The notes under the pieces: model-generated
Seen by the model: only the letters and a program-made list of their open reading frames with translations
What the model was told of the DNA's origin: nothing
The model's database searches: none
NCBI GenBank assembly: GCA_013265495.1
Contig: MU057416.1
Span: 180,545 to 244,544 of the forward strand
Source of the DNA: Vicugna vicugna
Taxonomy: Eukaryota
Direction of reading: 5' to 3'
Length of the DNA: 64,000 bases
Made by a program: the position numbers and the translations under genes
Shown: piece after piece, positions 12,567 through 51,445 of the stretch
Layout of the letters: each line of letters opens with the position of its first letter
Numbering within the stretch: position 1 is the stretch's first letter

Positions 12567-14068
12567 GGTGGACCAGTACAGACCTCTGGGCCTACGGCTG
12601 GTCCACACAAGTCCTCCATCTCTGAGAAGGAAGTACCAGTGTCCTCATACTTTGACCTCTGCTTTCTTGTCTCGTCTGTCATCACGAGATACGTACCATA
12701 TCAGAGCCATCATTTGCTCACATTTCCTACAAATCCTCAACAAATGTACATGTCACTCCATGTCAGGGGACAGAAGACACAGCAGTGACGGGAGATGGGT
12801 GGCCTCCCCCCACAGAGGCTTCCTGTGTGCTGCGCGGTGGAGGCGCAGAGGCACCCCTTGCTTACTCTGAGACCAGACAGGTGCTGTCTGAGGATGCACA
12901 CGGGCAGTGGGTACCTGATGACCAAGCCCATTTGGTCCTGAAGGATTTTTTCATTTAATTTTTCCTGTGGAACTAGTTTATTAATTTGCTGTCAAAGGAG
13001 AACATTTGGGCAGCTTTTCTTTAACATGCATATAATTATGCAGAAACCCTTGTCCATAAGTATACGATCAGTTCTTCAAGACAAAGTTCGCGACCTGGAA
13101 TTTCTGTGTCAAGGGCCAGGGAGGTGTTCAGTCTCTTCAAGCATATTAGCAACTTCGCTTTTCAGGCAGAGTTTCTTCCCCAGGCTCCTCCTGGCGACGT
13201 GTACATGTTTCCTTTCACAGACGTTTGCCGGAGTTTATTTGTGTCATTTTCAAACGTGTTAATTTTATAGGTGCAACTGGTATTCCTTAAAATGTCTATT
13301 TTGCATTGGGTTTGATTTTTATTGTGTTTTTTTTTATTTGCTTATCATCATTTGCATTTCCTTCCTGGGAACTGCATTCATGTGGTTTGCACATGTGTCT
13401 TTGGTGCAGCTGTGTCTAAATTTTGATATAAAGTTGCATGGAAGAGGACAGAAATATACGTATATGTATTTTCGCAGCTGATTCAAATGTTAGAACCAGG
13501 ACCCAGGTCATCAGCTGCGACTTAGTCTAGAGGAGAAACCATATGTGTTTGGATCAATTTTCCTCTTTGAAAAATTCTTAACAAGTAGTTGCTGGAACGT
13601 TCAGGGCAGACTTGCGCAGCCATCAAGGAAACCAGTCTCCATCCACGCAGGACCAGGTCCCTTAGGGAACGCAGGTGACTTTGGCAGTGAGCCCAGAGGC
13701 TCACGAGAGCCTTCTCAGGAACCTGCCGCACAGCGATCCAAAGTGCATTGGCCAAAACAAACAAGCAAAAAAACATCGTCCCTGGCTCTGGGACGCTTCA
13801 TTTGGCTTCACCTTCACACTCCCACCCATAGCCGCGTGCTACCTGCTGGCTCTCCCAGCAGCTTCGTGACAGCCGTGTTCCCCATAGCCTCCCTTTTCAT
13901 TTTCTCTCGCCAGGGCACTGCAGCATCTGAGCTGAGGGGCATCTCAGAGGCCACCAAGGGCAGCGCCCTCGCCCCTCTGGCCAGCACCCTCCCTGACTGA
14001 ATATTTTCTAAGACTACTGTTTTAAAAGGAAAGCCTTGTCGAGTGGTGAACAGCCCCAATTATTAAAA

Positions 14069-20470: not shown

Positions 20471-21745
20471 GAAGCGAGGAATATGGCGGCAGCTAAAACG
20501 TATTCCAGGAGAAAAATGAAAGATTTTGTTACATGAGGTGAGAAAGGTTTATGGGAACCAAAGGGAAGGATCCGAGAAGGCTAAGACTGAGGGTCCTAGA
20601 GGTGGAGGCAAACACTTGGGGGTCACAGAGCTTTCAGACTCCAAAAGGCCAAGGTCGGTGTTTTCGCTTTTCAGAACTGGGGAGGCCATCTCTCCCAATG
20701 GAAGCATTAGAGCCCTTTGGTGAACAGCGATATACTTAAGGGCGATTAAGTGAGATTAACAAAAGCCTCCCGTCCATGTAGCAAGCAGCAACAAGACCAC
20801 CAAGGGTATCTTCATATGTCCAGTAGGTGACACGTGGTCTGTAGTCTGAGCCATAGAGTTGACAATCTTGGGTCCTGGCTGGTCTACAGAAGACACCATT
20901 TTATATAATTCAGCCTAATGGCAGTGGTTTCAAAGGAGTGACTTCTGTGCAAATAACATGGTTGAACTGGTACCCACAGCTAGCACTCTGGGTCAGAATG
21001 ACAAAGAAGGAGCTAAATGGTTGCATAGTAAACCACAAAAAATGAACACTTATTTTCAGAATTCAAATCATGATAGATCTGAGAGTAGGTGTGGAAATGA
21101 GTAACTCTTAGTGTTGTCACCTCAGTCGCCAAAATCCTGTGCATGGTTCTGCCTCTCTGAGGGGTGGTACTCACACTGGACATCTGCCAGCTTTTCCCAC
21201 GCTCACACCCACCCACCTGCACCCAGTGTCCTTTCAAGCCTCTGGCCCTCCTGCTCCCACTGTGGGGGCCTCCCTCCTTCACCTGCTGTGTGCTCACAAA
21301 ATGAGATTTGTTTTTAAACCTTGACAATCCTCATTCTTCACCTTTCCCAGTCTTCAAGATGACATTTAGACAATCATTAATGAATCACTGTGTTTAGCAG
21401 ATGACGATTGTGTTTGCTGGTGGGTGTGTGTGTGTGTGTTTCTGGAGAAGAGGCTAGCGCATATTTTCTGACACTAACTAGAAGCTATTAGGCAATTAGG
21501 AAAAAAATGTTAACTCCTTTAATTTGCGAGGAAGTCATTTGATGACTTAGAAAGTCTATTGATAGGTTTCCTTTGGGTAGGAGGTTGGAAGAAAATTGAA
21601 TTGTTTGATCAAGATTTTTTTCAAAGTATGAAGTCTGAGATAAGAGATGACTTACTTCTTTGGAAAGAGATGATAGAATTAGATTTAAAAGTTAAGTACT
21701 TCTTTTAAAATATGTTCCTTCATTTTCAAGTTTTTATTCTGGAGC

Positions 21746-23049: not shown

Positions 23050-23880
23050 CTCTTGAGCTCTGCCTTTCCCTTCACAGGCCTCTTCCAGCCTCGTGGGCTG
23101 CGCCCTCTCGCTTCCCGTCCACCCACCTGCTTACTGCTTTCTGGCCGCTTCTCCCCATCCGCCCCCGAAACTGCTGGCTTTCACAGCCAAGCACCGCCAC
23201 CCGGCCGCCTGGCTTCTGAAACGCTAGATGCCCTGGACCAGGGGAGCCTCGCTTCCCTCCGCCTCTCCGGGCGCGCGGGCGTCATCGCCAGCTTTCTTCC
23301 CGCTGGGACGCCCGCCTCGCCTAGTTGCCCCAGGGCGCGACCCCGGCCTCGCGGGGCTGCCGCGCTCTCCGCAGCGCTCGGGCGGCGCCTCTCCTGCTGG
23401 CTCCGTTAGCGCTGGGGCGGCGTCTCCCCGGGGCCATCCCGCCGCCAACCCGCCTTCTGCAGGGTGCTGGCTGCCACGTCTGTCTCCCCAGCTTTGCTTG
23501 CTCTTCTGCCTTGAGACCCACTGGTGCAGCTGCGCGGCGGACGCCCCCGGCTGGAGCGCCACCGGCATCGCGGACACGCACGCCCCAAGCCGGACGCCGC
23601 GGCGTCCTCCACTGGCCCACTCGGCCCTCGCGCTCCCCGGCCCAGTGAATGCTGTCGGCCTTCCCACAGCTAGGCTCCAAGGCAGGAACTTAGGATGTGC
23701 GCTGAATCTCTCCATTTCCCGCAGCTCAGCATTTAGTCATAAAACATCCCCGAGACCGTAGCCTTAAAGCTGAAATCCCCCCTTCTGCCCACGGCCGCCG
23801 CCGCAGACCGCTTGGCTTCCTCCGGCGGGACGGCCTGAGATCGCCGCCCCCCGCACCTCTGTGTTTTTCTGGCTCATGAA
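23050..23880 (+). mobile_element. L2 LINE remnant converted into a CpG island
   Basis: Collinear with the recalled L2 3' consensus (…CCCCAGC…GAGACCCA…CAGCTGC…GGAC…C.GG…CCAC.GGCA…CAGTGAATG…CCAAG.CAG.AAC.TAGGA) but with very high GC and CpG. Confidence 0.65.
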
Positions 23881-31379: not shown

Positions 31380-31417
31380 NNNNNNNNNNNNNNNNNNNNN
31401 NNNNNNNNNNNNNNNNN
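31380..31417. other. Assembly gap (38 N)
   Basis: Run of N next to a C-rich tract. Confidence 1.
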
Positions 31418-33159: not shown

Positions 33160-33410
33160 CCCATCCTCCTCCCCCCGTTCTCCCCCATCCTCCTCCCATC
33201 CTCCTCCCCATCCTCCTCCCATCCTCCTCCCCATCCTCCTCCTCATCCTCCTCCCCATCCTCCCCATCCTCCTCCCCATCCTCCTCCCCCGTCCTCCCCA
33301 TCCNNNNNNNNNNNNNNNNNNNNNNNNNNNNNNNNNNNNNNNNNNCCATCCTCTCCATCCTCCCCATCCTCCCCCCATTCTCTTCCCCATCCTCCTCGCC
33401 ATCCTCCATT
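33160..33410 (+). repeat. (CCATCCTCCTCC)n-like pyrimidine-rich low-complexity repeat containing an assembly gap
   Basis: Tandem CCCATCCTCCT units; N run at 33304-33345. Confidence 0.95.
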
Positions 33411-35073: not shown

Positions 35074-35091
35074 TGGCGCCACCTACTGGGA
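35074..35091 (-). promoter_or_regulatory. CTCF motif
   Basis: Minus strand TCCCAGTAGGTGGCGCCA, a near-consensus CTCF core. Confidence 0.65.
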
Positions 35092-39557: not shown

Positions 39558-39584
39558 GACAAGTTGTGGATACTGCAACTAACG
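39558..39584 (+). CDS. PTPRC: PTPRC exon 3 (27 nt), (G)QVVDTATN, mature N-terminus
   Basis: Long poly-T tract + ACAG acceptor, donor G|GTAGGA. 27 nt, phase 1-1, same size and position as human exon 3 (GQSPTPSPT). Confidence 0.85.
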
Positions 39585-40561
39585 GTAGGAATTAATATTT
39601 GGATTTTACTTACTTTATTTTTTGTTGCCAATTTTATATACTTAATGTTGATAGAATTTTCCATTATCATCTAGTGAAATCGTTTTTAAGGACAAGCTTT
39701 ATAATCATGAATGGTCCTTGACCTTCTCTTGATCATAATATGCCTGCTTGTAAGTTTTGGTAACTACCTGAACATATATATTATTACTTGTAAATGTATT
39801 TTGTGTATAAAGTATAGCCTTTCTTATATGGACAGCAAATCACATGGTAGATTTCCAACCTCTTTTTTAATTTTAACATTGTAAATAAATTTATTTATTT
39901 TAGTTTGATCATAAAACTTCATAGTGAAGGAGTTATATGAGAAATTAGAGAGAATTCTAAACATAATTACATATATATAAATTCCTGCAAGAGAAAAGCT
40001 TTGACATTATTTAAGATAGTTTGTCATAATCATTTCCAAATTCTATTGTCACAACTGAATTCAGTTTTAACAAGTTGTCCTAATCCTGAGATAAATTTAA
40101 GCAATGCAGATGCTGACAATAAATTCATATATATCACTTGCAAAAGGAGAGAGAGAAATTAGATTGCATCTGGTTAAAAGTTAATTACATCGCTAAAGTG
40201 CTATTGTTATGAAATTATATTATTTGATTTCCTGATCAGTTATATCGTTGACATTATGCAATGGTAGGTAAAGCCATTAAGATAACCCGATGTAACCATT
40301 CTAAGGCAGAGTTCTCGTGAGGCACATTCACAGTGTTCTGAGAACTGGATTATTAAAGGAACTATTTCAGTAATTAAAGAAAAATTCATGCCGAACTTCA
40401 GAAACAAAGAACTGTAACAAAATGTTCCTGAATATGCGTAAGAAGCGTGCGGTCTTAATTTTAAAAGGCATAATATTGGGACTTTGTAGTTTTATAGTGC
40501 CTCAGAGTGGTTCCATCTGTACATGAAAGTCACTGCCGCTTAGCGGATTGTGATTGGTTTA

Positions 40562-40576
40562 TGCCACCTACTGGGA
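40562..40576 (-). promoter_or_regulatory. CTCF motif
   Basis: Minus strand TCCCAGTAGGTGGCA. Shares the 14-mer GCCACCTACTGGGA with the site at 35078-35091. Confidence 0.55.
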
Positions 40577-42950: not shown

Positions 42951-43023
42951 TAGACATTTTTTCAAAGTATTTTTCTTCCAGTTTTTAAAAATTGAGCTAT
43001 AGCTGACATATAGTGCTATATAC

Positions 43024-43137
43024 TTTTGGGGGGTGCAGGGGAGGTAATTAAGGTGTATTTATTTATTTATCTTAATGGAGGGATGGGGGACTGAACCCGG
43101 GATCTCCTGCTTGAGAGGCACACACTCTATTGCTGAG
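43024..43137 (-). mobile_element. Vic-1-like SINE (older or diverged copy)
   Basis: GGGGAGGTAATTAAGG…ATTTATTTAT…ATGGAGG…GACTGAACCCGGGATCTC. Confidence 0.8.
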
Positions 43138-43425
43138 TTTGTTTTCGATCTAAACCTATTATATCTACACCTCTGAAGGCATCTACAGCTGTATCCATGC
43201 AGGTGCACATACGTGTGTGCACTTTCAAATGCACACGCCTATACACATATACACCATGACTCACAGCTGTGTGGTGTGTGCATGTGCACACACGTACATG
43301 TATGCACATTTAAGTACACACCATCATGGACGGGAGTCAGTAGGCTCAGATGGGCTGACGTTTCAGGATATGATTCACCTCACCTGTTGATTTTCTCCTC
43401 CCTGCATCTCTCATGACTGTGGCAG

Positions 43426-43623
43426 GACTGAACACAACAGAGGCGTCCACAAGTCTGCCTCCAAGTGACCCCTTTCCTGCTCGCACCACCGCATTCTCAC
43501 CCGCAAGCATCTCTGAACCAGGCAAGGCCGCCTCAGAGACCGTGCCTCCTCTAAACGCAGGCAGTCCCACCGCGGAAGTCTCCTGGAACCACACGGCTCA
43601 TAATGGTACTTCTGCTGTCACAG
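43426..43623 (+). CDS. PTPRC: PTPRC variable exon 4 (CD45RA), 198 nt: GLNTTEASTSLPPSDPFPARTTAFSPASISEPGKAASETVPPLNAGSPTAEVSWNHTAHNGTSAVT
   Basis: GGCAG|GA acceptor, ACAG|GTTGGC donor, 198 nt. Clear similarity to human exon A (SDPLPTHTTAFSPAS). Confidence 0.96.
43454..43513 (+). promoter_or_regulatory. ESS1/ARS exonic splicing silencer of CD45 exon 4 (hnRNP L/hnRNPLL-responsive)
   Basis: Repeated GCA-containing motifs CTCGCACCACCGCATTCTCACCCGCAAGCA, nearly identical to the human ESS1 core as recalled. Exon position 77 (43502) is C, the silencer-intact state. Confidence 0.75.
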
Positions 43624-44681
43624 GTTGGCGGACATCCTAACTCAGATGGGGTTAGGGAAACTTGGCACTCTCTCTGTTTTTTCGTTATTTCTTCTTCTTT
43701 TTTTAAATTTTAAAGACATCAGAACAGTTTTTCTTTAAGTTAAGTGTTTAGGTTCTTTGTGTGTGATCTTACAAAATGTGTAAAACGCAGAACATCCAGG
43801 TGTGAATGAAACGTTGGCTGACTGAAGTGACGCCCTGGGGCTGTCAGGGAGCAGGGGGCGAGGGAAGTCCGCCTGGGCAAAATCCGGGTTAGGGGTGTTT
43901 GCGGTGTTCCCTGATCTGTCTCTGCCAACCACATCATTCTCCTGGTCCCGCTCACCTAGGTTTCCTGTGGGCCCGACAGGTCAGAACTCCCTGCTGCGGG
44001 TCTGGGTCGGCCCCGCCCTCCCTGGCTCTTACCCCGGAGTAGAAGCTTTCTTGGTTCAGTTTCAGATTCTCAGTATCAGAAAATTATCAGAGACAGACAG
44101 TTCATTTTTTTTAACCACACTGAGGATTAATAATCCAGTTTAGTTACTTGGATTTCCTCCAGGAATAGTTGCATTATTTTTCAAAAATTAATAAATTAGG
44201 GTTGTGCATCCTAATGGTAGAATTAAAGGTACTGTGGCCAAGTTCATAGCAAAATATCAGGCTACCGTAGGAGGTGTTTCTGCCCGGCGTAGCCCCGGAT
44301 GCCCCTGGAATCTGGGGGCACCCCTGATCTGCTTGTTGGTCCTTTGTGAAGCAGACAGTTTCTAGACATGCTCTGGTCAGAGACTGAGCTCTGTGTTCAG
44401 CAAGGTCATCAGTCTTGGCTTGGAGCACAAGCGTGGGGAGCTCCGGCCCGGACTTGCGGCCCAGGGTATGTGCAGTGTTTTGAGCACCATCTTGATGGAG
44501 GTTTCTGGCTGCCCTCCCGCCAGGTGAACTGAAATACGGGCCGACTGGCCCTTGAAGAGACGGAGCCATTTCCCACGTTGGTAAACTGTAATACCAGTTT
44601 GCTGCTTGTAACCTCTCGGTATTTGAAATTTTCACCTGCGCTGGGGAGGTGGTGATGCAATGACCTCACCTTCCGGCCGTC

Positions 44682-44807
44682 GGCGGCCGTCAGCGCGGAC
44701 GCCGCACCTGTCGGCGCCCGCGGGCCCGCTGGCGCCCTCTGCCGGCCGTGGCGCCCGGTCGCCTGCCCCGCAGCGTCAGCCCCGCTCCCGGGCGGCGCCG
44801 AGTCCGG
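44682..44807 (+). pseudogene. PTPRC: Degenerate relic of PTPRC variable exon 5 (CD45RB); probable pseudo-exon
   Basis: Lies between exons A and C. Translates RPSARTPHLSAPAGPLAPSAG, aligning to human exon B [21 protein letters not shown]. No AG at the expected acceptor (…CCGTC|GG) and GC rather than GT at the expected donor (CCGG|GCTGCC). Extremely GC/CpG-rich. Boundaries approximate. Confidence 0.8.
44730..44748 (-). promoter_or_regulatory. CTCF motif inside the exon-5 relic
   Basis: Minus strand reads GGCCGGCAGAGGGCGCCA, matching the CTCF core CC(A/G)SYAGRKGGCRS. Human CD45 exon 5 is a known CTCF-bound exon. Confidence 0.6.
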
Positions 44808-47338
44808 GCTGCCGGCCCCCTAGACTCGTGCAGCTACGAAGAGCGCACGGACAACGTTTAACGACGCGGGGAGGGAATCCAAGCGCTGGTCCACGGGTCG
44901 CATTTGCTGGCTGATGAATTTGGAAATTCATCCTTTCATAGTTACCCTCCCGCCAGGAGACCGCGTAACAAAGGTCCTTGTAATGGAGATGAAATACTGA
45001 AGAATGAGAATTACGAGTGCGCTGGAAAAGCCTGTTCACGGGGTTCTTCAGGGCTTCCTCTGTTTCTGTTTGGGACAAGTGTTACTGCGCAGTGGAAACC
45101 TCCTTTCGTTAGAGATGAAGAATATGTACGCAGGTTCTTTACTTCAGGACCTCCTGCCAGTAACAGAAAGATGAAAAGCAGGCCGTGCCTCTTATCGCCG
45201 AAGCACACTGAGAAATTGTAACCACAAGTACACTGTTTATTAAAAGACTGAAAAAAAATTAGATGCTTACATTCTCCGTTCGAACACCAAGATCCTTTCA
45301 GTTAAGCACCTCTGTCTATAGAAGCTGCAGACTATCCCCTCCCTGGTCTTTCCAAAATCACTGCCTAATCAGTTCACGGTGCCCTTTTTTATCCTGAAAA
45401 ACAAGCATGTTTCTCGGGTTAAAAATGCACACAGACACGTGTAGCCATTAGTGACCTGAGGGCCTGGAAGTGACAGGTGTGACTGGGGAGCCTGCCAGCA
45501 CAGTGACTTTCCTTTCAGTATGAATCCCACGCGGAAGCAATATATATCAAGTAAAGTAATTATAATTTTGAAGCGTTAAGACGCTTCCCTTGGCCTGAAA
45601 AATCATGACAGGCAATCCACAGACTTTAAACATCTGGGAAAAGATCTGCCCTCACCTCCCTGCCTGGTTTCCTGGCTCCCACTACCGTGGGAACCGCAGT
45701 AAAAAAATGTGACACTGCTAGCAAATCCATGGATTCCCAGGGTGTGGCCGAGAAGGAGGCGTGACCTGGGGGCTGACTGTCACACAGAATTCTTCCTCTC
45801 ATAGGGGCGAATTCCACTGATTAAAAATCGATTAAGATTAATTAACCTAATTAAAGTAGTAATTACCACTCCTAAGCCATCCCCGAGATTACCTGCTCCA
45901 AGGAAGTGGTTTTCATATGAAAGGGGAGGTGGGGGATTTAGCGAGTGGGGGAGGGGCCCTCAGAACCACCTGACTACCGGGGACACCTGGGAGGGGCAGA
46001 GAGAACACGGGTTAGCGAAAAGAGGAGAAGAAAAGAGCGTGGAGGAAGGCAAGCCTGGCTGATTCCAAAATTTGCAGAGGGCCAGTTCTGTGCCTCCAAT
46101 TTTTTTAAAAGGATAAAAAAAAATGCATTTTCTACTCTTTTCCTTGCTCTGTTGGAACTTTCCTCTGAGAAGCCAGAGCTGAAAAATTGATGTTTCTGTT
46201 GTTCATACTATTCCACGATTGAGTTAAATTTGGAAAGTTTAGTGGTTTTTGAAGATTGAGCTGAGAACCCAAACTCAGAATTTTGGAAGATGCCCGTTCA
46301 AGCCTCGCAGCGTGTACATGTGTGATTGGAGGCCGCCTGTGTGCTGGCATCAGAGCACGTGTGCCCGTGCCGCTGGGCTTGAATACTGAGGATCTGACTG
46401 CAAATCCCAGACTAACCTCACACCGTTGAACCAGTGACCCCAGGGATCGTAACGGTGAAATAACCACATGAACTCAAATAGGAGCTGGCCCGAATTTCTT
46501 TTGCCTTTGTCGGGACCACTAGTGAGGTGCTGAGCAGATGGTGGGCACCCAGTGAGCGCCCATGGCCCGCCTGTGCTGGGAGGAAGGTGCGACCTGCTGT
46601 AGGTGCTCTGACCTTGATGATGGAACGTCCTGACCAGACACAGGGTGGCGTCTCGTGGGCGGCCACCCTTGATGGTCTACACTAGCTAGCACGTATGAGA
46701 TTGGAGAAGAGGGGATGTTGTCTGTGTAACGTGGAGGCTCTTGGGCTCCAATCCCGTCTTAGTTTTCCTGGTCTCCGTAGAGAAAGTAGAATTAGGACCT
46801 TCAGCTGGAAGGAAAAAACCCGAGCTCAGCAGCTGCACGGGCAGCGTCCCCTTCAGCTCTGCTCTAGGAAAATTAGGTGAAGCGCCTGCACCCAGGGGTC
46901 CCTCCCCAGAGAGGTGCGTCCCACCCGAGGCGCTGGGCAGGGCGGGCTGCAGGCCCCCGTGCAGACCTGGCGGCAGCCTCTGGCCCTCCGAGCTCACTTG
47001 CAGCCCTGCGGTCTCTGCACCAGCCAGCGGCACCCACTCTGTGCGTTTTCAGGGTTCTCTAAAGCAGCCCTCCCCGGGGCAGTCCTCCAGGCGGACATCC
47101 CAGACCATTTCCAAATGTGTGCCGTGTTTGGAAAACTGCCCGGGATCTGAGCTGTCTGTCCGTGAACTCGTCTCTCCCACAAGCTGTGCTGCTCTGCACC
47201 CCGTTTTGCAGGCACATACGTTGTGGCATAGCACGAGGGCTGCAGCAGCAGTGGGCATGCGGACGTTGGCTGCGTGGCCCCTGCCCTGGCGCGGGCGGCA
47301 GGGGTGCGTGGCGCTGCTGACGACCTGTCTGATTGCAG

Positions 47339-47482
47339 GTGCTCCCGGAGAGAGGATGACAGCCCGCACCTTGCCCGCAGACACTGCTCCCTCACCAGCA
47401 ACCACCCTCAGCCCCGCACACAGCAGCCTCGCTGCCTTGCCTCCACGCATCTCCAACTCGACCACCAAAAATACCACCTCAG
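47339..47482 (+). CDS. PTPRC: PTPRC variable exon 6 (CD45RC), 144 nt: GAPGERMTARTLPADTAPSPATTLSPAHSSLAALPPRISNSTTKNTTS
   Basis: CTGATTGCAG|GT acceptor, TCAG|GTTTGA donor, 144 nt. Similar to human exon C ([42 protein letters not shown]). Confidence 0.96.
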
Positions 47483-48258
47483 GTTTGACCGTGATGCTCT
47501 AGGTGTTTTAGGTGCTGGATGATGAGATAAAAACTTGAAACTTTCATGCAGCTCTTTTATTTCACACCAAATATTACTTGCAGCTTTCCCATTTTACCAA
47601 TTTTCACATATTGATACTAAATTAGGCGAAACACTCCTCAATTTACCAGGAAGCTTTTTCTGGGCATATTTTATTTTATTATTTATGTTATAAAAGTTTA
47701 TGGCAAAGAAGAAAGACAACAGATTTTAGTGTCATCTAGCTGAGAGCAAATCCAGCCTCTTTTAATTTCCTAGCTGACTTTGGGACAAGTGACTCTTAGC
47801 TTTCTTTGTGTCGGTTTTCCCTTCTGGAGAAATGGATATAATGATACTCATTTCACACAATGGATGTGAGCACTGAATCTGTAAAAAGCCTGGTATGAAA
47901 TGAATAGAACAAAAGTGTAACCGGTGTCCTTGTTAGTAATTAAAATAAGGAGAGTGGTAACTGATCGGGTAAGGACTAGCCTGGGCAGGACTGCACATCA
48001 AGGCAGAATTGTACCAAGGAACGAACGGCTTCCTCTCAACTTACCTGAAGCTTAGTTCCAATCCTTTGAACTGTTGGTGATCTTAAAGAGCCTTGTGTAG
48101 ATTAACCTTTGACTCACTTTCTTATTTTAAAAAACAAGTGAGTGTCAACTCAAACTAGGAAGAGATTCGGTTAAGTTGGTCTTTGCTGAAGCGTTTCCGC
48201 CTCGCCCTGCAACGTGACAGACGCATTAACCGGTGTTCCTCTGTTCATTTCCTTGCAG

Positions 48259-48339
48259 ATTCGCTCTCCACATCCCCTGCACCATCCTCTCTGACCACTG
48301 CAGCAAGCACTTACTCTGCAACAGCTCCCACAACCATAG
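48259..48339 (+). CDS. PTPRC: PTPRC exon 7, 81 nt: DSLSTSPAPSSLTTAASTYSATAPTTI
   Basis: TTCCTTGCAG|AT acceptor, ATAG|GTGACA donor. S/T-rich, ends TTI as in human exon 7, phase 1-1. Confidence 0.9.
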
Positions 48340-49469
48340 GTGACAACCTGACCCCCAGTCATGCAGTCACACCACCGCCACGCGCTTGGGACACGCTCAC
48401 AGAAGGGTCTTCCGTTTGCTCCCCCCTGGGCTCTTCCCCGGAGAAGTTCGCTTGAGGGTTCTAATCCCGAGGACTAGTCAGAACCACTGCTCTGTGTCGG
48501 CAGTGCGGCAGCTAAGGAGCTCAGGGCGTGGCGTTGTGGTGACAACCTACAGCGTCACGGTCGCAGCATCCCTCAAGAGTTGTGTGCTTCATGAGACGCA
48601 CGGAGAAATGACCAGCTAGGCTAGGACTTCTAAGAGCGGGTTTTGGTATTAGGATGGAAAAGGACAGTTCTGTCAGTGGGGATCTCTGTTTCACGAGGTC
48701 AGTAGCAGGGGAGTGATCACAGGGCCCCAGCCGTGCGCGCGGGGCGTGGAGACAAAGGCAGGGCGTGAACGGCCATCACTTGGTGGGTGTCCATCAGAGG
48801 TCAGCCACGCGGAGCCTGCAAGCGTACCATTCTCCCCCCAGTTTCTCCAACTCAACAATCAGATTAGCGGAGAGCTTTCAGCCTCCACAAAGCACATTTC
48901 CACTCAGTTCTTCAGTCAAAGACACGCACTCACACAAGATATGTCTCAGGGGCTGGAGAGCACAGTTTGGTGCCCTGGACCCAGTATCTGTGTGAAGCTT
49001 ACAGAGGTTAAACCAGGGAGTGAAGCAGCCCTTGCTTACTCTCTGATTTTTTTTTAAACAAAGGTGTGAACTGAACTCTCCAGGGGTAGTGATTCTATAA
49101 ATGTATTTGAGATTCATTAAGGGGATGAAGACTTTTTAAACGAACAGTCAGCCACGTTATTGCCATTCTGTGATCAATGTGTGTCCACCAGGTCTTAATG
49201 CGACATAGTCACAGTTGTGTTCATTGGGTCAATTCATGAAAATGTCTTATAGAACTAGCTCCTTGGTTTACAACCTTTGAAGTTTTGAGATCAAGACGTG
49301 GGACCAGGCACCGCCACCTCTGCGTTAATCTGCTCAGCCTAGCTCAGTCGCCTCTCCAGTTTATGGAGATGAACCTTTGTAAAGCGCCCTTCCCCAAAAT
49401 GACCAGAGCGGAGATATTCTAAAATGCAGCTTTCATAATTTGAATTCTTTTTTTTTTTGTCTATTACAG

Positions 49470-49496: not shown

Positions 49497-51226
49497 GTAA
49501 GTTTGTTTAATTAAAGGCAATGTCTATCACTTTAGAAAAGCTCTTAAATTATTTCCTTCTTTATTCCAAGCTTCCAACACTCCCTAGCGAGCTAAACTCC
49601 CTGACTCTGGTTCCTTGCCAGTGGTTGTCTCCTGTTCTTAAAAGCCAAGATCCTTCAGGGCAAGGAGCTTTGGCGTCATACTTGGACCTGGTTCTGAGGA
49701 CCCGGGTTGATGGTTACTAGCGAAACAGTTCACTTCAGTTTGGGATTTTATACAGTGATAGGATTACGAGTTTGTCTTGGGCTCGGGGGAGGATTCAGGG
49801 TGATGAGAAATATGAAATGTGAATAATACCTCACAGCTAATCAAGAAGAGAACGGTCCTCCTGTCTGTCTGTCTCTGTCTCTCTGTCTTGCCAGGGTTCA
49901 GCTCAGAGCAGGTGCTTGAGAACAGCTTGTGCCCATCCTTTTCCCATTATTCTTCCTGTGTTCTCAGTGGAAGCAAGGTCCTTCTTCATGGCCAGGGCTC
50001 CTGCCTCCAAGTGTTCCTAGATCTCACCGCTGGGGTCCCTGCCTTCGGTGGCTCTCCGCACATTCAGAGTGAACGTCCACCTTCGTGTGTTTGCTTGACT
50101 AATATGACCCCGCGTGACCAGGTTTCTCATGTGTTACTGCTTCCTCGCACTGTTCACTAAGTAACATGCCAGCATACGCAGCTTTTCAAGCACACGTTTC
50201 TTGCGGGCCCCATCTTCCCTCCTGCTCTCCTTCCTCTCCCCTTGGAATCCCACGCCATCCTCACCCAGCGCCGCCGCCTCCATCAGTCTGTCCATGCCCT
50301 GCTCCCAAGTTAAGATGCAAACAGAGTCACCTCCTCCGGACACCTCTCCTGTGCCTACAGTCTGAACTGACTTCTCTGTCCTTTTCCTCCGTGTTATTCT
50401 GTGCATGATCTTATTTTAGGTGTTTTTCCTGTTTTCTGTGGTTCCTGCTTATGCCTGTGTCCACGTTGGATCCTAGGGTCCCCAAAGCTTAGCGTTTGTA
50501 TCCCTAGTGCCTGGGACAGTGTCTTAAGCTAAGTAAGGGCTTCGTAATTTTTGTTGCACTAAAAAAAAATGAGTGAATATATTAATGGGTGTTGAAAAGA
50601 TATATTCACCAGTCAGTGGCATCTATTTAAATAAAGGGGAGCGTGAGACTACACTCTCATTTTCACACTAAGGAGGCATCGTTACCCATAATCTTACAAA
50701 AGCGGAGGAATGATGTCACCTGTGGTCTCCAAGTACGATGTTCTGCATGTCGAGAGAAAGAGGCCATCCAGTACTCCGTTTCAGAAAGCAAGGGGGTGAT
50801 AAAGCAGGAGAAGGAATGTGTCAGGTGCACTGTGCATTTTTTTGCTGCGTAATTCAACAATCACCGAGGCCCTGCTCATGACAAGTGTGACACAGGGATC
50901 CGGATCTGTGGTGATGATCAAAACAGACAGGGCTTTGCTATCATGGGATTTACAGTCCAGTTAGGAAGACAGACAGACATGAATCCAGCAATCATATAAA
51001 TACAAGCTTACAAGCCGGGGTCCTTGCTAGGGCGGTGACATAGACGGAATTATGAAAGAGTGACATGGAGGCCCCCGGTGTGTCCTTTTCCTTTTTTATG
51101 TTCCTGGGGATATTTTGTTGGTGATTTGCTATTTTTTTAAAGTACGTGTTGAGTTTGTATTACGCAATGTAGGTTTATTCGTTCTGAAAACTAAAGGACA
51201 ATCTTCGTGGTTTAATTTTCTTTCAG

Positions 51227-51445
51227 AAAATAAATATGAAGACATCCATGTGCGTTACTCTTACAACAAGGATAACAAAACATACGACGCAACACTTACT
51301 GTTGGTGATAATGTGACATGTGACCCCCTTGAGTGTAGGAACAAGCAGCTGTTTGGTCTGGAGACATGCACAGATCACACTATAGAGATAAAACATGAGT
51401 CATGTGGTGATCCACCTAAATCTCTACAATTAGAAGTTCCACCAG
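51227..51445 (+). CDS. PTPRC: PTPRC exon 9, 219 nt, Cys-rich domain d1: ENKYEDIHVRYSYNKDNKTYDATLTVGDNVTCDPLECRNKQLFGLETCTDHTIEIKHESCGDPPKSLQLEVPP
   Basis: TTTCAG|AA acceptor, CCAG|GTAAAT donor. Four Cys with the same spacing as human d1; ends LEVPP. Confidence 0.96.

What the first reader, a model, noticed from the sequence alone, without database searches (positions are those of the whole stretch)
44660..44830. CD45 exon B (exon 5) appears dead: both splice sites lost in a GC-saturated relic
Seen: exons A and C are intact, but between them the only exon-B-like sequence (TPHL…PSAG) has no AG at the expected acceptor (about 44681) and GC instead of GT at the expected donor (CCGG|GCTGCC, 44807/44808). 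It is about 15 nt shorter than the 141-nt human exon and is almost entirely G/C. Established: CD45 isoforms arise from alternative use of exons A/B/C, and CD45RB is a major T-cell subset marker in human and mouse. Inference: this lineage can make only RO/RA/RC/RAC, so anti-CD45RB reagents should not work and the longest ectodomain is shorter, which matters for kinetic segregation. I recall pig isoforms being described without B; that needs checking and would bear on shared versus independent loss.
Basis: partly seen in the sequence, partly recalled or inferred. Interest (0 to 1): 0.85.

Follow-up and report, generated by a model that had tools for sequence, protein, structure and literature searches.

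The report
Dead CD45 exon B in camelid
In this camelid's CD45 (PTPRC) gene the middle of the three alternatively used exons survives only as a very GC-rich remnant with no usable splice signals, a loss that seems to be shared with camels, pigs, ruminants and whales and is therefore a modest finding.

Summary
Exons 3, A, C and 7 of PTPRC are intact (AG/GT, lengths 27/198/144/81). The only exon-B-like sequence lies at 44682-44807. It is preceded by TC and followed by GC, and no GT within 44700-44900 resembles a donor. It is 85.7% G+C with CpG o/e 1.09, the most GC-rich 150 nt of the window. Its best BLASTP match in rhinoceros and human CD45 is exon B (E 2e-4, 0.002). That alignment puts the true exon end near 44822-44827, which still lacks a usable donor.

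The longest Bactrian camel isoform joins A directly to C. None of 26 cetartiodactyl CD45 proteins carries exon B, against 81 of 94 from other mammals. The loss is therefore probably old and clade-wide, not camelid-specific.

The remnant keeps a 13-of-14 match to the CTCF core over codons APSAG. Human exon 5 holds a known CTCF site. GC-biased change alone could explain why these already GC-rich codons survived.

Non-use in this species therefore rests on sequence and on camel annotation.

Verdict: a real dead exon of moderate-to-low novelty.

The parts
39558..39584 (+). PTPRC exon 3 (27 nt, constitutive, phase 1)
   Evidence: 9 of 11 residues match the Camelus N-terminal peptide; flanked by AG and GT.
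43426..43623 (+). PTPRC exon 4 / A (198 nt), intact
   Evidence: AG/GT present. 95% identical to Camelus exon A. Donor CAG|GTTGGC matches 6 of 9 consensus positions.
44674..44695 (+). 10-bp tandem duplication (CGGCCGTCGG / CGGCCGTCAG) across the expected acceptor position
   Evidence: Tandem Repeats Finder: period 10, 2.2 copies, score 37; sequence read. It could be a chance feature of GC-rich sequence.
44682..44807 (+). TC stands where AG is expected and GC where GT is expected.
   Evidence: GC 85.7%, CpG o/e 1.09. GC is equal at the three codon positions (0.83, 0.88, 0.85).
44808..44827 (+). Probable 3' continuation of the remnant if aligned without the 15-nt deletion (orthologous exon end about 44822-44827)
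   Evidence: The BLASTP alignments to rhinoceros and human exon B end at ...PSPG, five codons before the exon end in those species. No usable donor lies here.
44670..44920 (.). CpG-island-like patch around the remnant (251 nt, GC 0.74, CpG o/e 1.16, 40 CpG)
   Evidence: It is unique in the window and has no Rfam match.
44732..44745 (-). CTCF-core-like motif CCGGCAGAGGGCGC (13 of 14 positions of CCASYAGRKGGCRS). On the + strand it reads as codons A-P-S-A-G.
   Evidence: 5 matches in the window against 0.78 expected; 36 of 3000 dinucleotide shuffles of the remnant give any such match..
47339..47482 (+). PTPRC exon 6 / C (144 nt), intact
   Evidence: AG/GT present. All 48 exon-encoded residues are identical to Camelus exon C. 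Donor CAG|GTTTGA matches 6 of 9.
48259..48339 (+). PTPRC exon 7 (81 nt), constitutive
   Evidence: AG/GT present. Exons 3-A-C-7 joined in silico give one open frame with the Camelus X1 arrangement.

Best explanation
The segment is the orthologue of CD45 exon 5 (B), now a dead pseudo-exon inside a single 3.7-kb intron between exons A and C.

Shown: it sits in the right place, strand and order. It keeps TPHL, then eight residues, then PSAG. It has no AG at the acceptor position and no donor-like GT.

Inferred from related annotation: the spliceosome joins A to C directly, as in Camelus. The lineage therefore makes at most RO, RA, RC and RAC.

Inferred from the taxon pattern: the exon stopped being used before camelids split from the other cetartiodactyls.

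Inferred for the later history: once free of coding constraint, the sequence was driven from A/T towards G/C, including many new CpGs. GC-biased gene conversion at a local recombination hot spot is the most likely cause. Protection from germline methylation may have added to it. This erased the Thr/Asp/Asn/Gln-rich mucin-like character and replaced it with Arg/Ala/Pro.
For: Splice signals.
- The expected donor CGG|GCTGCC matches 3 of 9 consensus positions, with U1 duplex energy -3.8 kcal/mol.
- All 9 GTs in 44700-44900 match at most 5 of 9, with energies no better than -4.9.
- The eight real exons of the window match 6-8 of 9, with energies from -5.2 to -10.3.
- The position before 44682 is TC.

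Homology and uniqueness.
- Exon B is the best BLASTP match of the remnant's frame in rhinoceros (E 2e-4) and human (E 0.002) CD45.
- No other exon-B-like frame exists in the window.

Non-use in relatives.
- Camelus bactrianus X1 and C. ferus join A to C.
- 0 of 26 cetartiodactyl entries have B, and 8 of them show a full exon A joined to C. These include isoform X1 of Kogia and Ovis canadensis. Odocoileus X1 also lacks B.
- 81 of 94 other mammalian entries have B.
- No protein among the database's cluster representatives of 73-2000 residues contains the remnant's peptide (weak evidence).

Loss of coding character.
- GC is equal at the three codon positions.
- The GC implied at codon positions 1+2 is 0.821. 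For 60 functional exon-B peptides it is 0.629 (sd 0.048, maximum 0.744), so z = 4.0. Exons A and C of this window lie in the normal range (z 1.6 and 0.9).
- Thr falls from 18% to 2%. Asp and Asn fall to 0. Arg rises from 1% to 17%.
- The block THADSQ, conserved at 83-98% in functional exons, is gone.
Against: - No RNA from this species was examined. The only read-laying run was rejected.
- The exon-B profile scores the remnant's frame at only E = 12. Homology rests on pairwise BLASTP, position and motif spacing.
- The remnant is stop-free and 126 nt long (a multiple of 3). An in-frame AG (44692-93) and an in-frame GT (44802-03) exist, so rare cryptic use is not excluded. All three frames are open here, though, as expected at 86% GC.
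- The protein list holds only cluster representatives, the best 120 of 272 hits. For beluga, bottlenose dolphin, blue whale and warthog the lowest-numbered isoforms were not seen, and cluster members could not be listed.
- No genomic DNA of other mammals was available. Neither the shared-loss inference nor the direction of substitution is shown at the DNA level.
- That 14 DNA runs hold 0.87-0.92 of the sampled words of 43300-48500 does not show that the GC-rich patch itself is among the words held.
Confidence: 0.75

Rival explanations
1. The remnant was exapted, or simply kept, as a DNA element: a methylation-sensitive CTCF site in a small unmethylated CpG island. In human B cells CTCF bound in exon 5 pauses RNA polymerase II and promotes inclusion of that exon. 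In a lineage without the exon, the site could still pause the polymerase between A and C and so affect how the weak exons A and C are used. This reading can hold together with the dead-exon reading.
For: - CCGGCAGAGGGCGC at 44732-44745 (- strand) matches 13 of 14 positions of the CTCF core. The window has 5 such matches against 0.78 expected, and 0 of 100 shuffles reach 5.
- Given the remnant's own composition, only 36 of 3000 dinucleotide shuffles give a match.
- The motif covers codons APSAG. P, S and G of PSAG are 90-95% conserved in 60 functional exon-B peptides.
- A strong-motif CTCF site inside human CD45 exon 5 is documented (passages read in PMC6699469 and PMC8373115).
- The patch 44670-44920 has CpG o/e 1.16 against 0.48 for the window, as expected for DNA that is unmethylated in the germline.
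- Exons A and C have weak donors, 6 of 9.
Against: - PSAG is encoded by CCC TCT GCC GGC, which is already G/C at 10 of 12 positions. A/T-to-G/C drift would leave it untouched without any selection. TPHL also survived.
- The single mismatch is in the CCA triplet of the core.
- That the human site lies exactly on the PSAG codons is my recollection of the human sequence. The papers' text says only 'within exon 5'.
- No binding, methylation or cross-camelid conservation data could be obtained.
Confidence: 0.15
2. The exon is still used at a low level through cryptic or non-canonical sites. Examples are the acceptor AG at 44692-93 paired with the GC donor at 44808 or the GT at 44802, which would give in-frame exons of 114 or 108 nt.
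For: These combinations keep the frame, and the frame is open. GC-AG introns exist (general knowledge). CD45 variable exons generally have weak sites, 6 of 9 for A and C.
Against: - The candidate donors match 3-4 of 9 positions, with U1 duplex energies of -1.4 to -3.8 kcal/mol.
- The acceptor tract is 53% pyrimidine with 12% T.
- The encoded peptide is Arg-rich and Thr-poor, unlike any of 60 functional B peptides.
- Camelus models omit it.
- No protein contains the peptide.
Confidence: 0.06
3. The GC-rich patch is an assembly or polishing artefact, and the real genome carries a normal exon B.
For: Extreme GC stretches are poorly covered by short reads (general knowledge). The 14 DNA runs lack 8-13% of the sampled words of 43300-48500, and I could not see which words.
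Against: - The patch still carries ordered exon-B motifs in the right frame and place. A random artefact would not.
- The flanks grade into it, with GC 0.54, 0.68, 0.86 ... 0.70, 0.62.
- Independent Camelus gene models also lack exon B.
- The stretch as a whole is held by runs of 5 studies under three organism codes.
Confidence: 0.04

Closest known systems
Human/mouse PTPRC exon 5 (exon B), a cassette exon with an internal CTCF site
   Same: Same position between exons A and C. Same strand and phase. The TPHL-(8 aa)-PSAG motif is kept. It is the best BLASTP match of the remnant. A CTCF-core-like motif is present (human site per PMC6699469 and PMC8373115, passages read).
   Different: No AG acceptor and no donor-like GT. 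86% GC. The conserved THADSQ and DTQT blocks are lost. The peptide is Arg/Ala/Pro-rich and Thr-poor. [quoted passage not shown] Here A joined to C is the longest form expected.
Camelus bactrianus PTPRC isoform X1 and C. ferus PTPRC (P0002, P0001)
   Same: Exon A is 95% identical and exon C identical. A is joined directly to C with no B segment.
   Different: These are predicted proteins from another camelid genus. Exon 9 is identical at only 55 of 73 residues, so the window is not from Camelus. It is probably a South American camelid (inference). Their genomic remnant could not be inspected.
Pig CD45 isoforms described without exon B (Schnitzlein & Zuckermann 1998, recalled; not found in the searchable library)
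   Same: The warthog isoform X4 joins A to C, and neither it nor the pig protein has B. This is the same repertoire as inferred here.
   Different: I could not read the paper. Whether pigs keep a comparable GC-rich remnant is unknown.
Tracts driven by GC-biased gene conversion (clustered weak-to-strong substitutions; general knowledge)
   Same: A short, sharply bounded stretch far more GC- and CpG-rich than its flanks, with no codon-position signature.
   Different: The direction of substitution is inferred from peptide composition only. No outgroup DNA, polymorphism or recombination data were available.

Membership tests
Functional PTPRC cassette exon B (exon 5) | Lies between exons A and C on the coding strand and is homologous to exon B | tested here: met
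   It lies 1058 nt after exon A and 2531 nt before exon C. Its best BLASTP match in rhinoceros and human CD45 is exon B (E 2e-4, 0.002). The profile search alone is not significant (E 12).
Functional PTPRC cassette exon B (exon 5) | AG acceptor with a pyrimidine tract | tested here: not met
   TC at 44680-81. The nearest in-frame AG (44692-93) has a tract of 53% pyrimidine and 12% T.
Functional PTPRC cassette exon B (exon 5) | GT (or strong GC) donor able to pair with U1 | tested here: not met
   CGG|GCTGCC matches 3 of 9 positions at -3.8 kcal/mol. All 9 GTs in 44700-44900 match at most 5 of 9, with energies no better than -4.9. Real exons match 6-8 of 9, from -5.2 to -10.3.
Functional PTPRC cassette exon B (exon 5) | Ser/Thr-rich mucin-like coding content with the conserved PTHADSQ..DTQT blocks | tested here: not met
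   Thr is 2% against 18%, and Arg 17% against 1%. Implied GC at codon positions 1+2 is 0.821 against 0.629 (z 4.0). The conserved blocks are absent.
Functional PTPRC cassette exon B (exon 5) | Present in mature transcripts or proteins | tested here: inconclusive
   It is absent from both Camelus proteins and from the database's cluster representatives of 73-2000 residues. RNA of the window's species could not be examined.
CpG island (length >= 200 nt, GC >= 50%, CpG o/e >= 0.6; criteria recalled) | Composition thresholds | tested here: met
   44670-44920: 251 nt, GC 0.74, o/e 1.16.
CpG island (length >= 200 nt, GC >= 50%, CpG o/e >= 0.6; criteria recalled) | Unmethylated in the germline | not testable with these tools
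   No methylation data were available.
CTCF binding site | Match to the core motif CCASYAGRKGGCRS (consensus recalled) | tested here: inconclusive
   13 of 14 positions match at 44732-44745 (- strand). The match is rarer than chance both in the window and locally (36 of 3000 shuffles). No weight matrix was available and one core position is mismatched.
CTCF binding site | Occupancy by CTCF in cells | not testable with these tools
   This needs ChIP or CUT&RUN in camelid cells.
GC-biased gene conversion tract | Excess of weak-to-strong substitutions relative to an outgroup, and weak-to-strong alleles at higher frequency | not testable with these tools
   Only indirect evidence: peptide-implied GC against 60 functional exons. 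No outgroup DNA or polymorphism data were available.

The most novel reading that the evidence does not exclude
The DNA-level function of exon 5 outlived the exon. In cetartiodactyls the remnant persists as a methylation-sensitive CTCF site in a small CpG island. The site still pauses RNA polymerase II inside the A-C intron and tunes inclusion of the weak exons A and C. It may also act as a recombination or gene-conversion focus, which would explain the GC saturation. This would be a natural experiment that separates the 'CTCF roadblock' from the exon it was discovered on.
Probability: 0.12. Interest if true: 0.6.

Novelty: new member of a known kind. Interest (0 to 1): 0.33.

Why it matters
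CD45 isoforms are standard markers of naive, memory and regulatory lymphocytes. Markers and reagents are often carried over from human and mouse to livestock and camelids.

If exon B is dead in camelids, and apparently in all cetartiodactyls, then:
- A true CD45RB epitope cannot exist in these animals.
- 'CD45RB' labels, such as the one used for mAb CC76 in sheep (PMC4473062, passages read), would be operational names only.
- Isoform-based subset definitions in camelid immunology, including nanobody work and MERS research, should rest on A and C.
- The largest ectodomain lacks about 47 mucin-like residues.

For splicing biology the remnant gives a lineage in which the human exon-5 CTCF model can be tested without the exon. 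The loss itself is already implicit in public gene models and was, as I recall, described for pig. The advance is therefore incremental.

Tried and rejected
- RNA and DNA reads. The look-up of sequencing runs listed 24 runs, 20 of which hold at least part of the stretch. 14 DNA-type runs hold 0.87-0.92 of the sampled words. Five RNA or possibly-RNA runs hold 0.28-0.29 and one holds 0.05. The single read-laying run was rejected by a filter on a part of the stretch that has nothing to do with the finding, and it was counted.
- Profile search for exon B in the six-frame translation: nothing significant. This excludes an intact copy, but it also gives the remnant itself only E = 12.
- Search of 5.8 billion protein clusters for the remnant's peptide: no hit. 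This is weak evidence, because isoforms fall into their parent cluster.
- The hnRNP L/LL 'ARS' motif MCYYGCA (recalled) occurs once each in exon A, the remnant and exon C. The window has 58 matches against 64.6 expected, so it is uninformative.
- RNA folding of 44660-44830 gives -88.3 kcal/mol with z = 0.32 against shuffles, so there is no special structure.
- Rfam on 43000-48000 found nothing in the patch.
- BLAST of the patch against the window shows it is not a repeat. The other four CTCF-like sites are not copies of one element.
I found no open paper stating that pig, cattle or camelids lack exon B. Passages of two cattle papers (PMC9180881, PMC8300432) simply assume exons 4-6 as in humans. 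Supplements were not consulted.
- The search of earlier findings: nothing relevant.
Full report
**What the window is.** The + strand carries the 5' half of PTPRC (CD45). Translated searches with a camel protein place the following exons:
- exon 3 at 39558-39584
- exon A at 43426-43623
- exon C at 47339-47482
- exon 7 at 48259-48339
- the first ectodomain exons from 51226 onward

Exons 3, A, C and 7 are flanked by AG and GT and are 27, 198, 144 and 81 nt long. Joined in silico they give one open frame. Exon A is 95% identical to Camelus ferus and C. bactrianus CD45. Exon 9 is identical at only 55 of 73 residues. The animal is therefore a camelid but not Camelus, and probably a South American species (inference).

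**The observation.** The stretch 44682-44807 translates in the exon phase as GRPSARTPHLSAPAGPLAPSAGRGARSPAPQRQPRSRAAPSP. It is preceded by TC and followed by GC.

Its composition is extreme:
- 108 of 126 bases are G or C, and CpG o/e is 1.09.
- Of 6347 sliding 150-nt windows, seven reach GC 0.80. Six of them lie here, with a maximum of 0.853 against a mean of 0.447 (sd 0.099).
- The wider patch 44670-44920 (GC 0.74, o/e 1.16) meets the usual CpG-island thresholds. The whole window has o/e 0.48.

**Is it really exon B?** A profile built from 60 distinct exon-B peptides does not score it significantly (E 12). It scores nothing else in the window either, so there is no intact copy elsewhere between A and C. 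Pairwise BLASTP is clearer. Within the whole 1318-aa rhinoceros protein and the 1306-aa human protein, the best match of the remnant's open frame is exon B (residues 89-139, E 2e-4; residues 103-141, E 0.002). With the correct strand, the position between A and C, and the preserved spacing TPHL-8-PSAG, I accept the homology.

The same alignments pair ...PSPG with ...PAPG/PTPG, which lies five codons before the end of the exon in other mammals. The orthologous 3' end is therefore more likely near 44822-44827 than at 44807. On that alignment the '15 nt shorter' point does not hold. This does not rescue the exon. The bases at 44826-27 are TC, and the nearest GT (CTC|GTGCAG) matches 4 of 9 consensus positions and would shift the frame.

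**Splice-site quality.** I scored donors by matches to MAG|GTRAGT and by duplex energy with the U1 5' end, using the eight real exons of this window as the yardstick.

| Site | Consensus matches (of 9) | U1 duplex (kcal/mol) |
|---|---|---|
| Eight real exons | 6-8 | -5.2 to -10.3 |
| Exons A and C | 6 | -6.9, -6.4 |
| Expected remnant donor CGG\|GCTGCC | 3 | -3.8 |
| All 9 GTs in 44700-44900 | at most 5 | no better than -4.9 |

The only in-frame AG close to the start (44692-93) follows a tract that is 53% pyrimidine and 12% T. A 10-bp tandem duplication (CGGCCGTCGG/CGGCCGTCAG) spans the expected acceptor. It may be part of how the site was lost, or it may be a chance feature of GC-rich DNA.

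**Loss of coding character.**
- GC is the same at all three codon positions (0.83, 0.88, 0.85).
- Implied GC at codon positions 1 and 2 averages 0.629 for the 60 functional peptides (sd 0.048, maximum 0.744). The remnant gives 0.821 (z 4.0). Exons A and C of this window are unremarkable (z 1.6 and 0.9).
- Thr drops from 18% to 2%. Asp and Asn drop to zero. Arg rises from 1% to 17%.
- The best-conserved block of functional exons, P-T-H-A-D-S-Q (80-98% per column), is gone.
- The open frame is not evidence of function, because all three frames are open across this GC-rich patch.

**Relatives.** Both Camelus proteins, including isoform X1, read ...AVT|GAPGER..., which is A joined to C. I classified the best 120 of 272 mammalian CD45 hits with the exon-B profile.

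| Group | Entries with exon B |
|---|---|
| Cetartiodactyls (20 taxa: camels, whales, hippopotamus, pig, warthog, ruminants) | 0 of 26 |
| All other mammals | 81 of 94 |

Eight of the 26 cetartiodactyl entries show a full exon A joined directly to C. These include isoform X1 of Kogia and Ovis canadensis. Odocoileus X1 also lacks B. The 13 other entries without B include short forms lacking other variable exons and unnamed Logan-derived entries. They also include entries that join A directly to C: Lemur X2, Choloepus X2, a pangolin (the only form annotated for it), Desmodus X2, Glossophaga and Dipodomys X1.

There are caveats. Only cluster representatives were visible. For several whales and the warthog the lowest-numbered isoforms were not among them. 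Even so, the simplest reading is one loss before the cetartiodactyl radiation. I put that at about 0.6-0.65. It cannot be shown without the genomic remnants of the other lineages, which these tools do not hold.

**Why so GC-rich?** Replacements such as Thr to Ala, Asp to Gly, Gln to Arg, Ser to Pro and His to Pro are each one A/T-to-G/C step. The patch is short, sharply bounded, single-copy and CpG-rich. That is the pattern expected from GC-biased gene conversion at a local hot spot, and perhaps also from a lack of germline methylation. This is inference. No outgroup DNA or polymorphism data were available.

**A second layer: CTCF.** The - strand at 44732-44745 reads CCGGCAGAGGGCGC, 13 of 14 positions of the CTCF core, and covers the codons A-P-S-A-G exactly.
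- The window holds 5 such matches against 0.78 expected.
- Only 36 of 3000 dinucleotide shuffles of the remnant itself produce one.
- Human exon 5 contains a strong CTCF site whose methylation-sensitive occupancy pauses RNA polymerase II and promotes inclusion of the exon (PMC8373115 and PMC6699469, passages read).

The remnant may therefore still bind CTCF. Against this, the PSAG codons were already G/C at 10 of 12 positions, so biased drift would spare them without selection. One core position is mismatched. That the human site coincides with PSAG is my recollection, not something the papers' text states. I give the regulatory reading about 0.12-0.15.

**What could not be done.** The decisive test is junction reads from camelid lymphoid RNA, and it failed. 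The reality of the GC-rich patch in independent reads is likewise unverified at base level. The stretch as a whole is held at 0.87-0.92 of its sampled words by 14 runs of five studies.

In ten searches I found no open paper stating that pig, cattle or camelids lack exon B. The pig report (Schnitzlein & Zuckermann 1998) is recalled, not read.

**Verdict.** The exon-B homologue in this camelid is a genuine dead pseudo-exon (about 0.85 that it is not spliced at a meaningful level). The event is most likely ancient and shared by cetartiodactyls. It is already implicit in public gene models, so novelty is modest. The unusual part is the state of the remnant: a GC-saturated, CpG-island-like patch that retains the CTCF-core sequence of the former exon.

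Noticed in passing
window 23131-23710: A second CpG-island-like patch (580 nt, GC 0.71, CpG o/e 0.88, 62 CpG) deep in the intron upstream of exon 3. Apart from the exon-B remnant, it holds the only other 150-nt window reaching GC 0.80.
   Followed up: no
whole window: CpG o/e is 0.48 for the whole 64 kb, and 0.50-0.59 in the introns flanking the remnant. From general knowledge this is high for mammalian intronic DNA. It suggests weak CpG depletion or GC-biased processes across the region.
   Followed up: no
window 35076-35089 (-), 40561-40574 (-), 20820-20833 (+), 13836-13849 (-): Four further CTCF-core-like matches, one of them perfect (CCAGTAGGTGGCGC). The window total is 5 against 0.78 expected. 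They are not copies of one repeat.
   Followed up: partly
window 43621-43629 and 47480-47488: The donors of exons A and C are weak (CAG|GTTGGC and CAG|GTTTGA, 6 of 9). The constitutive exons 9, 11, 12 and 13 match 8 of 9. This fits regulated cassette exons, as in human.
   Followed up: partly
proteins P0060, P0084, P0016 (deer, zebu, bighorn sheep): Ruminant CD45 proteins carry 3 to more than 12 tandem copies of a 14-residue unit (PPLTSNSTTQDNAS-like) after exon C. These are not seen in camelids, whales or pigs. The variable region was rebuilt by repeat expansion in ruminants.
   Followed up: no
literature: PMC4473062: A monoclonal antibody called anti-CD45RB (CC76) is used to sort sheep cells. 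Yet none of the 15 ruminant CD45 entries examined has an exon-B-like segment. The name is probably operational and does not refer to the exon.
   Followed up: partly
window 51226-51444 (exon 9): Only 55 of 73 residues are identical to Camelus bactrianus, while exon C is identical. The first ectodomain exon diverges very fast within camelids, in line with reports of positive selection on CD45.
   Followed up: no
window 31380-31417 and 33304-33345: Two short runs of N (assembly gaps). The second lies within proline/serine-coding simple repeats. Both are far from the finding.
   Followed up: no
window 1-39557: Exon 2 (signal peptide MTMYLWL...) was not found anywhere upstream of exon 3 in the window. 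Intron 2 is therefore longer than about 39 kb, or the exon lies in a gap.
   Followed up: partly
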